A stretch of DNA of 64,000 nucleotides from contig JBQGDO010000100.1 of NCBI GenBank assembly GCA_052039105.1, forward strand, positions 10,701 through 74,700, read 5' to 3'. Made by a program: the position numbers and the translations under genes. Origin of the DNA: Methyloceanibacter sp. Lineage in GTDB: Bacteria > Pseudomonadota > Alphaproteobacteria > Rhizobiales > Methyloligellaceae. The notes beneath the pieces are model-generated. The model was not told the DNA's origin. It saw only the letters and a list, made by a program, of their open reading frames with translations, and did no database searches. The stretch's first letter is position 1. Each line of letters opens with the position of its first letter. Shown here one piece after another: positions 48,061-51,547 of the stretch.

Positions 48061-49611
48061 ATGGCGAGCACCACTGCAAGGCTCCAGCGGCAGGTGCAGT
48101 TGCCGCAATATGTCGTTGACCTCGTCGCGGATGAATTGCGGACCGCGAAGGGGGAGCATGTGGAGTTGCGCCCGCGCTCCTTGGCCGTACTGCGTCTCCT
48201 CGCCGAACACGCCGGCCGCCTCGTCACCAAAGACGACCTCATCGCCAAGGTCTGGGACGACGTCGCCGTCACTGAGGATTCCCTCACCCAATGCATCGCC
48301 GATATTCGCAGGGCCATCGGCGACGAGGAGCGGCGCGTGCTGCGCACCATGCCGCGCAAGGGATACATGTTGGTGCCGGCGCAACGCCGTGCGCTTCTTC
48401 CCGGCCGTGCGCCGGATTTTCCTTCCCTCGCCATCATGCCTTTCCTGTCGATCGGAGAAGATTGCGGACCCGTGATGCTGGGTACAGGCGTGGCGAGCGA
48501 AATCATCAACGAACTGGCTCGCAATCGGGACCTCCGCTTGATTGGCCGCGATTCCTCCTTCGCATTGGGCGATCAGAATCTGATGGCGCAGGAGGTCGGC
48601 GAGCAGCTTGGCGCACGCTATCTGGTCGAAGGCACGACCCAGCGTATCGAGGACACAATTACCGTCGACGTGCAGCTTGTCGACACGCGCGACGGCAGCA
48701 TCGCCTGGGGCGATCGCTTCTCCGCTGAAGCGCCGAACGTGCTTCACGTGCAGCACGAGATCGCAACCAGGATCGCCGTAAGCGTGCATTCTGGCATACG
48801 CGCAGTTGAGAAGCAGGCCATCCTGGGGGCACCCCCGCGCGACCTCGACGTCTACGAACTGACACTGCGCGGTATCGCGCGCAAGCACTTATTCAGTGGC
48901 GAGGCGACACGCGCCGGAAGAGCCGATCTCGAAGAGGCGATCCGCCGCGATCCAAACTACGCGCCGGCCTATGCCTATCTCGGCTGGCTCAACCTGATCG
49001 ACTTGTTGCTGGGACTGACCGGCGAATGGGGCCCTTCCAGGCTCGGCGAGGTGATCGGTCAATTCAATCGCGCCATCGAGCTCGATTCCAGCTTGTCGTC
49101 GGCCCATCAAGGCTTGAGCCAGGCCCTGATCCACGCGGGCGACATCGAGCGAGCGGTCGCGGTGGGACGGCGCGGAGTCGAACTCGGGCCAAGCGATGCC
49201 GATGCGCTTTTGTTCCTCGCAGTTGTCCTGTTCGAGTCGGGAGCGCTCGGCGAGGCGCTGGAGCTGGCCGACAAGGCAATCAATCTCAATCCGCTCAGAC
49301 CGGCCTACTACTGCTTCTTCCACGCCATGATCCTGTGGGGCAATAAGCGCTATCAGGAGTCGTTGGGAGAATTTGAGGAGTGCCTGCGCAGCGCGCCGAA
49401 CTTCCGCGGCGCGGACACCTACCGCGTGATGTGCCTTGCCGGACTCCGTCGCCTCGACGAGGCCAAGAAGCTGCTGGCGCGATTGATGGCAAGTCCCAGT
49501 GGACTCCTGGTGCTTGCGCCGAAGCCGCCCGAGCTCGCCAGCCGCGCGCTGGCTCAGCTGCACGAGGCCGGCTGGCGGCCAACCCTGGCGACGGAACGCA
49601 AAGCCGTCTAA
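48061..49611 (+). CDS. Transcriptional regulator: OmpR-type winged helix + TolB-like + TPR
   Basis: LRPRSLAVL..L...GRLVTKDDLI..VW...VTEDSLTQCIADIRRA, T.PRKGY; SLAIMPF; RYLVEGT; TPRs (AIRRDPNYA, AIELDSS, GVELGPS, AINLNP). Confidence 0.9.
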   Translation: MASTTARLQRQVQLPQYVVDLVADELRTAKGEHVELRPRSLAVLRLLAEHAGRLVTKDDLIAKVWDDVAVTEDSLTQCIADIRRAIGDEERRVLRTMPRKGYMLVPAQRRALLPGRAPDFPSLAIMPFLSIGEDCGPVMLGTGVASEIINELARNRDLRLIGRDSSFALGDQNLMAQEVGEQLGARYLVEGTTQRIEDTITVDVQLVDTRDGSIAWGDRFSAEAPNVLHVQHEIATRIAVSVHSGIRAVEKQAILGAPPRDLDVYELTLRGIARKHLFSGEATRAGRADLEEAIRRDPNYAPAYAYLGWLNLIDLLLGLTGEWGPSRLGEVIGQFNRAIELDSSLSSAHQGLSQALIHAGDIERAVAVGRRGVELGPSDADALLFLAVVLFESGALGEALELADKAINLNPLRPAYYCFFHAMILWGNKRYQESLGEFEECLRSAPNFRGADTYRVMCLAGLRRLDEAKKLLARLMASPSGLLVLAPKPPELASRALAQLHEAGWRPTLATERKAV

Positions 49612-49637
49612 CCCGTCGGCGCCGGCTTTCCCCCAAC

Positions 49638-49690
49638 TTCAGAAACTTTCAGCGGCCTTTCAGGACCTTGGGCGAGGTCTTTTCTAGACT
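49638..49690 (+). promoter_or_regulatory. Triple TTCAG direct-repeat box with -10 element (copy 1)
   Basis: TTCAG at 49638, 49648, 49659, then GACCTT; TAGACT at 49685. Confidence 0.75.
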
Positions 49691-49764
49691 CGTGCTCATG
49701 GCGCGGGCCCGTGCCTCTCATAAGCCCTCCATCCCGGCGGGCTCAGCAATGTGAGGACACCGCC

Positions 49765-49941
49765 ATGAAAACGCTTGTTACCGCCATCGCTCTGGTTGTC
49801 GGCATCATCGCCGCCAACGGATCGGCCTCGGCTCGTTCTGACAGCCCGTTCTATCCGGAGAATTTCACCAATCAGCACCCTCCCGTTCCGGTCATCGGCG
49901 CGGGCAGCGGAATCCCGGCGCCATACCGCCTGGGCGACTAA
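49765..49941 (+). CDS. Small secreted Pro/Gly-rich peptide (58 aa precursor)
   Basis: MKTLVTAIALVVGIIAANGSASA-RSDSPFYPENF...; RBS GAGGA. Confidence 0.75.
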   Translation: MKTLVTAIALVVGIIAANGSASARSDSPFYPENFTNQHPPVPVIGAGSGIPAPYRLGD

Positions 49942-50020
49942 CGACATGGGGAGCCTTTGGCGCCAATCCGCAGCGCCTCGGGCTCCCCTTTTCCGCCAAG
50001 TAAACCCGAGGAGCTTGGCC

Positions 50021-50209
50021 ATGCCGTCCGCGATTGTGGCCGCCCTTCTTGCCTTTATGGCTTGCGCGCTTGGGGCCTCCGTCGAGGCTGAGGCGGCAGT
50101 GAAAAGTGCTTGCCCTGAGTTCGGGCGTCCCTGTGAGTGCTCGTGGCACGTCCGCGATTGCCTGCCGGTGTGTTACATCGACCTACGGATCGAATGCTCA
50201 CCGATTTAG
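50021..50209 (+). CDS. Small secreted 6-Cys peptide (62 aa precursor)
   Basis: MPSAIVAALLAFMACALGASVEAEA-AVKSACPEFGRPCECSWHVRDCLPVCYIDLRIECSPI; RBS GAGGAG. Confidence 0.7.
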   Translation: MPSAIVAALLAFMACALGASVEAEAAVKSACPEFGRPCECSWHVRDCLPVCYIDLRIECSPI

Positions 50210-50238
50210 CGGCTTGGGGCACACGAGCGGCTGTCGAA

Positions 50239-50291
50239 TTCAGAAAATTTCAGACCTCCTTCAGGACCTTCTTCGGCAGCGTCCCTATCGT
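50239..50291 (+). promoter_or_regulatory. Triple TTCAG direct-repeat box with -10 element (copy 2)
   Basis: TTCAG at 50239, 50249, 50260, then GACCTT; TATCGT at 50286. Confidence 0.75.
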
Positions 50292-50358
50292 CGGATGTGG
50301 CGCGAGAAGCGCCGCAAGGGTCGCCAATCTCGGGACCCGCGTCAGAGGAGGAAGCTCA

Positions 50359-50886
50359 ATGCCCACGCTCATGAAAACAATTCCACTTCTCGCCGCAATG
50401 GCGATCATTGGTCTGACCCCGTCCGGAGCGCTCGCAGGTGATGTCAAAGACTCCGGCAGCATCGATGCCGCTTACGTCAAACGCGATGCCCAGCCCATTT
50501 CGGAAGGCCACATGCTCGTTCTGAGCGAGTCGAGTGGCACTAGCGCCAATCCAGGAGGCCTCGTTGATGGTTTCGCAGTGAGCATCAAGGATGTCGTCGA
50601 CCTTCGCCAAGGCAACGGCCCCCAGCAGGGCTATGTGATTTACACCAACGGATCGCACCGGCAGGTCGTCAAAATTGACGGCATGGTGACCACTGTCATG
50701 CAGGACGGGCAGCCGAAAACCACCTTTAAGGGCAAATACACCATCGCTCCCAGCGACGGGACCTTGGGCATCGAGGGCAGTGGCACCTATTCCGGTTATT
50801 TCAAGTCGGAGAACGACTACCACGTCGACTGGGAAGGCACGCGCGCGGTCCAGAAGGACGCCATGAACTCCCCCGGCAAGAACTGA
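50359..50886 (+). CDS. Secreted beta-strand-rich protein of unknown function
   Basis: RBS GAGGAGG, signal peptide ending ALA, Gly/aromatic alternating strands (FKGKYTI, IEGSGTYSG, VDWEGT). Confidence 0.8.
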   Translation: MPTLMKTIPLLAAMAIIGLTPSGALAGDVKDSGSIDAAYVKRDAQPISEGHMLVLSESSGTSANPGGLVDGFAVSIKDVVDLRQGNGPQQGYVIYTNGSHRQVVKIDGMVTTVMQDGQPKTTFKGKYTIAPSDGTLGIEGSGTYSGYFKSENDYHVDWEGTRAVQKDAMNSPGKN

Positions 50887-50922: not shown

Positions 50923-50960
50923 TTTGGCCCCCTCGTCCCAGTGGCAGGGGGCCAAATTTT
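50923..50960 (+). terminator. Hairpin terminator
   Basis: TTTGGCCCCCT...AGGGGGCCAAA followed by TTTT. Confidence 0.65.
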
Positions 50961-51019: not shown

Positions 51020-51547
51020 ATGGCAAAGGCGAAGTTTCACAAGTCGCAGCGCGTCTTCGTCAAGCCAGTCGGCACTTGGGCTTATGTCGAAGCCGTCGTG
51101 CCGACCTGGGTTAAGGGCAGCACCGAGCCGTCCAAGATTACCTATGACTGCGGCATGGGGCGGGAATTCGAGCAAGAGGAGCTCGAGGAAGAATCTCTCG
51201 CGCTGCAAAGCAACGCCGCGAATGGCGTCGGCAGCTGGCGCATCCTGCGAGGCCACAACCGCTGGAAGGGTGCCGAACAATGCGGGCATCACCCGCACCC
51301 TGGCACCCACCCCCTGGTCGTGACCACCGAACGCGATTGGGGCGGCTGGCGAGTTCCCGGCGCCGAATACGATCTCGATCCCTATCGCATCGAGCGTCAG
51401 GCCGAGATCATCGTGCGCGCGCCGGTCTTCATGAAGCTTATCGAGGAATTCGTCGAACGGGCCGAGCAGGAACCTGAAAATCTCAGCGACGACATGATTA
51501 AGCTCGCGCAGCTCGCCCGCCGCATCGTCAGCGAAGTTGCCAGCTAG
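51020..51547 (+). CDS. Hypothetical protein
   Basis: Strong GC3 codon bias; Trp-rich (VKPVGTWA, WGGWRVPGAEYD); no function recognised. Confidence 0.8.
   Translation: MAKAKFHKSQRVFVKPVGTWAYVEAVVPTWVKGSTEPSKITYDCGMGREFEQEELEEESLALQSNAANGVGSWRILRGHNRWKGAEQCGHHPHPGTHPLVVTTERDWGGWRVPGAEYDLDPYRIERQAEIIVRAPVFMKLIEEFVERAEQEPENLSDDMIKLAQLARRIVSEVAS

What the first reader, a model, noticed from the sequence alone, without database searches (positions are those of the whole stretch)
48061..50886. Candidate new regulatory module: wHTH-TolB-TPR regulator driving three small secreted proteins
Seen: a cytoplasmic regulator (OmpR-type DNA-binding domain, TolB-like domain, TPR array, no receiver or TM) is followed by a 58-aa secreted Pro-rich peptide, a 62-aa secreted 6-Cys peptide and a secreted beta-rich protein, each with a clear RBS and signal peptide. 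Two identical-geometry promoter boxes precede the peptide pair and the third gene, and a terminator closes the unit. Known: OmpR-type wHTH domains bind phased direct repeats; TPR regulators next to small secreted peptide genes are the architecture of Gram-positive RRNPP peptide signalling. Inference: an analogous, uncharacterised alphaproteobacterial peptide-sensing or secreted-effector circuit. Peptide re-import and binding are not shown by the sequence.
Basis: partly seen in the sequence, partly recalled or inferred. Interest (0 to 1): 0.78.

Follow-up and report, generated by a model that had tools for sequence, protein, structure and literature searches.

The report
Membrane-free CadC-type activator with swappable cargo
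A conserved bacterial gene switch: a CadC-like regulator with no membrane anchor sits beside repeated TTCAG boxes that it likely binds to turn on three small genes whose products are predicted to be secreted; these look like interchangeable output rather than the regulator's own signal, which is probably a chemical stress.

Summary
In detail: regulator (48061-49611), two TTCAG triple boxes (2 found, 0.03 expected), two conserved mini-proteins under purifying selection, a secreted barrel and a terminator. The regulator model has CadC's layout (OmpR-type wHTH, TolB-N-like sandwich, TPR) without the membrane helix. A box lies within 200 bp downstream of 18 of 18 orthologues (controls 0 of 18) and within 600 bp of 30 of 35 other relatives across Proteobacteria. 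Its last half-site overlaps a weak -35 with a -10 behind it, as for an activator. The third gene is an allene-oxide-cyclase/dirigent-type barrel. The RRNPP-like reading is weak: 8 of 17 genomes with the regulator show neither peptide, including its four closest relatives' loci. The same peptide pair also sits beside a TetR repressor in 5 loci, with TetR-type palindromes and no TTCAG box. Cargo in relatives (GST, SnoaL-like, globin, hydrolase) points to small-molecule or electrophile stress. DNA binding and the ligand are inferred; the complex predictor was unavailable. No paper on the family or box was found in my searches.

The parts
48061..49611 (+). Soluble CadC/HilA-architecture regulator: OmpR/ToxR wHTH (about 10-108), TolB-N-like alpha/beta sandwich (120-244), TPR array (about 260-500); no TM helix, no receiver
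49638..49669 (+). Box 1: TTCAG-N5-TTCAG-N6-TTCAGGACCTT, phased direct repeats; third half-site overlaps the predicted -35
49685..49690 (+). Predicted sigma70-type -10 element TAGACT, 18 nt after GGAC
   Evidence: TAnnnT at 18-19 nt in 17 of 20 sites, about 3% per site by chance
49765..49941 (+). Mini-protein 1 (58 aa; predicted signal peptide 1-23; Pro-rich mature part ending GIPAPYRLGD)
49948..49992 (+). Conserved hairpin plus U-run between the two mini-protein genes (possible partial terminator or stabiliser)
   Evidence: z -4.0; GGGGRGYC..GGCTCCCC stem in 7 of 7 loci folded
50021..50209 (+). Mini-protein 2 (62 aa; predicted signal peptide; six invariant Cys, likely three disulfides)
50239..50270 (+). 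Box 2, same geometry as box 1
50286..50291 (+). Predicted -10 element TATCGT, 18 nt after GGAC
50359..50886 (+). Predicted secreted 8-stranded beta-barrel of the allene-oxide-cyclase/dirigent/DUF3224 fold (start may be 50371)
50923..50960 (+). Intrinsic terminator-like hairpin plus U-run

Best explanation
The regulator is a one-component transcription factor with CadC's predicted domain layout but no membrane helix, and it likely binds the phased TTCAG repeats beside it to activate two weak promoters for the mini-protein pair and the barrel, probably in response to a small-molecule or chemical-stress cue inside the cell. Shown: architecture by family scans and a predicted model; box-regulator linkage; promoter geometry; conservation of the three cargo genes; cargo exchange between lineages and between two unrelated regulators. 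Inferred: wHTH domains bind head-to-tail, one per 10-11 bp, with the last over the -35 (RGGACY instead of TTGACA) to recruit sigma70 polymerase, as OmpR/ToxR-family proteins do (own knowledge); the sandwich+TPR module is the sensor; the three products are exported to the periplasm or medium, where the barrel would bind or convert a small hydrophobic compound. The peptides are output, not the signal.
For: Box within 200 bp downstream in 18 of 18 orthologous loci, leave-one-out scores 26-33; reverse strand 0 of 18, inside-gene control 0 of 18. In 35 other regulator loci, 30 have a box within 600 bp: 30 boxes in 39,342 bp near the gene against 9 in 231,166 bp elsewhere, facing a neighbouring gene downstream, divergently or upstream in an operon. 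-10 at fixed spacing in 17 of 20 sites. The model matches the CadC periplasmic sensor over 320-338 columns (3ly8 E 4e-7; 3ly7 Z 13.4, rmsd 12.6, 270 aligned, residues 120-439); the nearest solved DNA-binding domain is CadC's (5ju7 E 5e-10). CadC's sensor is an alpha/beta sandwich plus TPR that senses pH and binds cadaverine (10.1101/2022.04.08.487670, passages). Barrel fold: 2q03 Z 15.1 (rmsd 2.1, 122 aligned), Diels-Alderases Z 12-12.6, pyocyanin demethylase Z 11.6. Cargo behind boxes elsewhere: GST, DUF4440/SnoaL, globin, alpha/beta hydrolase. Double dissociation: mini-protein 1 promoters in 5 TetR loci and one locus without a visible regulator have CTACC-N8-GGTAG palindromes and TTCAG scores of 5 or less, while 0 of 17 wHTH loci have the palindrome. 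The same GST family travels with both regulator types.
Against: No binding or expression data. The ligand class rests on neighbour functions only; the TetR's single conserved Cys (5 of 5) could not be aligned to NemR Cys106. The CadC match has a high rmsd (12.6) and generic TPR proteins score higher (Z 15-18.6); the sandwich alone finds no solved relative by sequence. Loci are kin (7 Mesorhizobium, 4 Methylobacterium among the 35) and were collected with the pattern [AV]VTEDSLTQ, so 30 of 35 applies to that subfamily. 5 of 35 have no box nearby. A similar box occurs in this genome away from any such regulator gene on its short contig (C197), so other paralogues or trans targets exist. A mini-protein 1 homologue repeats its C-terminal motif twice (L118), as multi-core propeptides do.
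Confidence: 0.62

Rival explanations
1. RRNPP-like peptide sensing: mini-protein 1 is exported, clipped to its conserved C-terminal GIPxxYRxG motif, re-imported by a peptide ABC transporter and bound by the TPR domain.
For: Small, adjacent, signal-bearing gene next to a TPR protein meets most of the RRNPP_detector signature (PMC10075063, passages). The C-terminal motif is conserved and duplicated in one homologue (L118). The genome has 5 SBP_bac_5 matches. A phage Rap aligns to the TPR part at Z 15.4.
Against: 8 of 17 regulator genomes show neither peptide (two 99% complete), and the closest regulators are barrel-only. The pair also lies under TetR without the regulator or its box. Peptide sequence is similar across regulators 54-76% identical to this one, without the diversification expected of a specificity pair. 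The Rap match ties with unrelated TPR proteins and covers only the TPR part. Known systems are from Firmicutes.
Confidence: 0.08
2. The regulator activates the same promoters, but its sandwich-TPR module reads a protein partner or envelope/export stress rather than a small molecule; in a variant, the barrel acts as a periplasmic co-sensor like VtrC/ToxS.
For: TPRs mostly bind proteins or peptides (own knowledge). Most cargo is predicted secreted. The barrel family follows the regulator in 12 of 18 orthologous loci and in 4 of 4 Methylobacterium-family loci. Co-component systems pair a CadC-like factor with a neighbouring periplasmic protein.
Against: The regulator lacks a TM helix, so it and the exported barrel are in different compartments. 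6 of 18 loci show no barrel-family gene (one is cut by a contig end). Cytoplasmic cargo (GST, globin) also sits behind boxes.
Confidence: 0.22
3. The boxes are read by another factor, or the regulator represses rather than activates.
For: The genome has three other wHTH-bearing paralogues and further TTCAG sites on other contigs; the third half-site overlaps the -35.
Against: The box follows the regulator through three gene arrangements and several classes of Proteobacteria. The -35 is degenerate, which suits activation; two TetR-type promoters of the same peptide gene show TTGACA/TTGACT instead.
Confidence: 0.08

Closest known systems
CadC (E. coli; ToxR-like one-component regulator)
   Same: wHTH nearest to CadC's (5ju7, E 5e-10; 2e-20 with the profile); predicted alpha/beta sandwich plus TPR sensor matching 3ly7/8/9; NCBIfam CadC 61.8 bits.
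   Different: No TM helix, so the sensor is cytoplasmic; far below the CadC cut-off (400); no cadBA; GC-balanced TTCAG repeats rather than CadC's AT-rich site (PMC5430869, passages).
HilA / EilA / YgeH
   Same: OmpR/ToxR-family activator (PMC7232297, passages); best NCBIfam match, spanning residues 27-416 (64.6 bits). Soluble wHTH+TPR layout and a direct-repeat box are recalled, not from a call.
   Different: Score far below cut-off (589); no secretion-system genes seen beside it; cargo is small adjacent genes.
RRNPP(A) peptide receptors (Rap, NprR, PlcR, Rgg, PrgX, AimR)
   Same: Cytoplasmic TPR regulator directly followed by a small signal-peptide gene.
   Different: OmpR-type wHTH plus sandwich instead of HTH or three-helix bundle joined to TPR (PMC9765709, passage); peptide is dispensable and shared with TetR; Gram-negative host.
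AOC/dirigent/DUF3224 barrels (SO_1590 family, AbyU-type cyclases, pyocyanin demethylase)
   Same: Eight-stranded barrel, Z 11-15; atlas structure hit to DUF3224 TM 0.67, under its naming bar.
   Different: 3-14% identity; no Pfam hit; no catalytic residue or substrate assigned.
TetR_C_13 repressors (NemR-like) with GST
   Same: Alternative regulator of the same peptide pair; TetR_N + TetR_C_13, GST neighbour; NemR among matches at E 2e-7; NemR senses electrophiles and HOCl by cysteines (PMC7464077, passages).
   Different: Not in this window; no close homologue in this genome at E 1e-8 (88% complete); NemR is only the 14th match.

Membership tests
RRNPP | Adjacent small (10-100 aa) propeptide gene | tested here: met
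   58 aa ORF 153 bp after the regulator; criterion from PMC10075063
RRNPP | Propeptide exported by Sec | tested here: inconclusive
   Hydrophobic core and invariant Ala23; no SignalP run
RRNPP | Receptor of 250-500 aa with TPRs | tested here: inconclusive
   TPRs present; length 516 aa, just over the range
RRNPP | N-terminal HTH or three-helix bundle joined to the TPR domain | tested here: not met
   OmpR-type winged helix plus an alpha/beta sandwich before the TPRs against the layout in PMC9765709
RRNPP | Receptor and propeptide form a cognate pair that stays together | tested here: not met
   9 of 18 loci have neither peptide; 8 of 17 genomes none; pair also beside TetR
RRNPP | Mature peptide re-imported and bound in the TPR groove | not tested
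   Complex predictor unavailable; SBP_bac_5 genes exist
CadC / ToxR-like membrane regulators | N-terminal CadC-like wHTH | tested here: met
CadC / ToxR-like membrane regulators | Single TM helix placing the sensor in the periplasm | tested here: not met
   Linker hydropathy max 1.23; model shows a coil
CadC / ToxR-like membrane regulators | Sensor of alpha/beta sandwich plus TPR subdomain | tested here: met
   Predicted model matches 3ly7/8/9 across both subdomains, with high rmsd
HilA/EilA/YgeH | Score above curated cut-off (589 / 800) | tested here: not met
   64.6 and 41.9 bits
OmpR-family two-component response regulators | N-terminal receiver domain | tested here: not met
   wHTH begins at about residue 10; matches to PhoB/OmpR cover only their C-terminal halves
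VtrA/VtrC co-component systems | Membrane-tethered factor whose periplasmic domain binds the neighbour's product | tested here: not met
   No TM helix; definition
AOC/dirigent/DUF3224 barrel | Eight-stranded antiparallel barrel of this topology | tested here: met
   Model pLDDT 85; Z 15.1 to 2q03
AOC/dirigent/DUF3224 barrel | Catalytic or ligand-binding activity | not testable with these tools
   A shared fold shows no function

The most novel reading that the evidence does not exclude
The 'TolB-like/wHTH/TPR' proteins, annotated in many Proteobacteria but unstudied in my searches, are a large family of soluble CadC-type chemical sensors that share one operator code (phased TTCAG over the -35). 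Each controls a swappable cassette of detox or ligand-binding proteins, here including two unnamed secreted mini-protein families that act as extracellular protectants or antimicrobials and can be handed over to a thiol-sensing TetR. The boldest version, that mini-protein 1 is also the ligand (a Gram-negative RRNPP analogue), is not excluded but has only about 0.08.
Probability: 0.4. Interest if true: 0.72.

Novelty: new variant of a known kind. Interest (0 to 1): 0.52.

Why it matters
It gives an unstudied, widespread regulator family a predicted operator, promoter geometry and target genes, testable at once in cultured Methylobacterium or Mesorhizobium strains that carry the same box. The same sandwich-TPR module is found on three other proteins of this genome without a wHTH, so a ligand found here would bear on them too. 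It also yields two real secreted mini-protein families (the Cys-rich one has only 14 clusters at 50% identity) and a clean natural case of one gene pair switching between an activator with direct repeats and a repressor with palindromes.

Tried and rejected
Complex prediction of sandwich-TPR with mature mini-protein 1: queue full twice, nothing folded; binding is open. Recognition-helix/box co-variation (16:0 against 4:15, p 2e-6) was an artefact of a 300 bp outward-only window; the 'no-box' loci have boxes about 400 bp upstream; rejected. A uniform 11 bp pattern found 0; spacing is 10 then 11. A strict 29-base pattern matched only G000 among 301 genomes of the order: too strict, says nothing on the looser box. 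The C197 box as a conserved trans target: only G000 scored 17 or more among 30 homologous loci, next best 16.2 and 13.7. Expression: two soil RNA libraries hold short identical contigs within the barrel gene, but also elsewhere in the window, and DNA carry-over is not excluded; not used as evidence. Pfam, NCBIfam and atlas gave no family for the three cargo proteins. Aligning the TetR Cys to NemR Cys106 failed. The regulator tree is the quick version; the careful search did not finish, and three frameshifted rows were cut to their longest segment. Literature searches for the family or box found nothing relevant; subscription journals are mostly missing and no supplements were read. Four look-ups of earlier scan findings were empty.
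Full report
Observation. All named parts are present at the stated coordinates. The boxes are TTCAG-N5-TTCAG-N6-TTCAGGACCTT at 49638 and 50239; the window holds 2 against 0.03 in shuffles, and the genome no other exact copy. The terminator and a second hairpin between the peptide genes fold far better than shuffles (z -3.6 and -4.0). The two small ORFs are under purifying selection: pN below pS in 21 of 21 and 27 of 28 pairs, with six invariant Cys in the second. Secretion is predicted from hydropathy and invariant Ala residues, not by a dedicated predictor. Homologues are labelled Methyloceanibacter by their sources.

The regulator. Pfam gives Trans_reg_C and TPRs. NCBIfam's best matches are HilA (64.6 bits) and CadC (61.8), far under their cut-offs. 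The predicted model (86 sequences, pLDDT 84.5, pTM 0.56) has a winged helix, a coil, an alpha/beta sandwich matching TolB's N-terminal domain (Z 13.7) and a TPR array. Foldseek matches the CadC periplasmic sensor over both subdomains (E 4e-7; Z 13.4 with rmsd 12.6), though generic TPR proteins rank higher. CadC's sensor is described as a sandwich plus TPR that senses pH and binds cadaverine (10.1101/2022.04.08.487670, passages). There is no membrane helix. The genome holds three more wHTH-bearing paralogues and three proteins with the sandwich but no wHTH hit.

Box and promoter. Close relatives were found in 17 of 100 other genomes of the genus. Of their 19 loci, one ends inside the gene; the other 18 all have the box 14-90 bp after the regulator, with controls at 0 of 18. 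Twenty aligned sites give TTCAGAAnTTTCAG-N7-TCRGGAC (sites were picked by a pattern, so core columns are conserved by selection), and 17 of 20 have TAnnnT 18-19 nt further on, a position not used in picking. This reads as a sigma70 promoter with a weak -35 under the last half-site. A scan of species genomes returned 53 loci; I left out 18 close ones and tested 35 (two at 57-60% identity, the rest distant). Thirty have a box within 600 bp, about 20-fold enriched over the rest of the loci, facing a neighbouring gene in three arrangements, in alpha-, beta- and gammaproteobacteria. These loci are kin and were collected with a recognition-helix pattern, so the count holds for that subfamily.

Cargo. 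The third gene has 118 relatives and folds as an AOC/dirigent/DUF3224 barrel. Among 18 orthologous loci, 6 have both peptides (one cut by a contig end), 1 a degenerate first peptide, 2 only the second, and 9 neither; 12 have the barrel. The window's regulator groups with four barrel-only regulators (95%, quick tree). Genome-wide profile searches find neither peptide in 8 of the 17 genomes (79-99% complete; one has only an E 0.0075 signal-peptide hit). In more distant loci the gene behind the box is a distant barrel (4 Methylobacterium-family loci; one tested at E 1e-19), a GST, a SnoaL-like protein, a globin, a hydrolase or an unnamed protein.

The decisive comparison. The peptide pair occurs in five further loci (G069, G030 with a truncated first peptide, G076, G088:C16, G124:C42) divergent from a TetR_C_13 repressor, in three of them with the same GST family. 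There the promoter carries two or three CTACC-N8-GGTAG palindromes and no TTCAG box; none of 17 wHTH loci carries the palindrome. Two other peptide loci (L111, L133) have neither element. Peptides that move between unrelated regulators, and a regulator that keeps its box without them, are output rather than a cognate signal. Against this, one homologue repeats the C-terminal motif (L118), the locus meets most of the published RRNPP screening signature (PMC10075063, passages), and peptide-binding ABC proteins exist in the genome. The direct test by complex prediction could not be run.

Mechanism. Most likely (0.62) the regulator senses a cytoplasmic small molecule or chemical stress through its CadC-like module, binds the phased repeats and activates two promoters, one for the peptide pair, with a hairpin that may favour the first gene, and one for the barrel. 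I put box binding and activation at about 0.85 and the small-molecule nature of the cue at about 0.7 given that. The cue is inferred from neighbours: GST, ligand-binding barrels, and a TetR with one conserved Cys in 5 of 5; NemR is a cysteine-based electrophile sensor (PMC7464077, passages), but the link to it was not established. Rivals: protein or envelope cue (0.22), RRNPP-like sensing (0.08), other factor or repression (0.08).

Known and new. It works like CadC or HilA but belongs to neither by cut-off, and fails two defining RRNPP features. Six literature searches for the family or its box found nothing relevant. Papers seen as passages only: PMC7232297, PMC5430869, 10.1101/2022.04.08.487670 (81), PMC10075063, PMC9765709, PMC7464077; others as search listings; no supplements read. 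HilA's soluble layout and box, and head-to-tail binding by OmpR-type domains, are recalled. Verdict: real, a new variant of a known kind, interest 0.52.

Noticed in passing
G000:C197:2074-2113 (minus strand; L045): A four-repeat TTCAG box with the same -10 spacing precedes a 72-aa gene with a YHPELHYMRG motif; homologues occur in 87 of 101 genus genomes, but only this one scored as a box among 30 loci. Possible trans target.
   Followed up: partly
G000:C158, C22, C94, C124 (short contigs): TTCAG pairs or triples lie upstream of genes beginning MRRREF/MxxxTRRxLI that look like ABC substrate-binding proteins; may be a related regulon or contaminant contigs.
   Followed up: no
G000:C160:695-2500: A wHTH paralogue with a different recognition helix has phased TCAAG/TCAGG repeats facing a divergent small gene with an AIDIDAYR motif.
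   Followed up: partly
L118:1423-1755 (minus): Mini-protein 1 homologue with its C-terminal SGIPAPYRIGN motif in two tandem copies, behind a TTGACA promoter with two TetR-type palindromes and ahead of a short-chain dehydrogenase.
   Followed up: partly
L106:1740-2612, L133, L034, L038: An unnamed hydrophobic, probably membrane protein follows mini-protein 2 in both TetR-type and wHTH-type loci.
   Followed up: partly
L070, L072-L074, L076, L079-L084, L087, L090, L098: In Mesorhizobium and Rhodobacteraceae the box lies about 400 bp upstream and faces a 77-107 aa unnamed gene followed by the regulator, suggesting autoregulation with a small partner.
   Followed up: partly
window 49697-49712 and 50296-50316: A TGGCGCG motif follows the -10 by about 8-10 nt in most sites, likely the conserved 5' end of the transcripts.
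   Followed up: partly
window 51020-51547: 175-aa gene with no Pfam or NCBIfam hit, 83-87% identical in relatives, between the module and an aminopeptidase N-like gene; it marks a fixed chromosomal site for the module.
   Followed up: no
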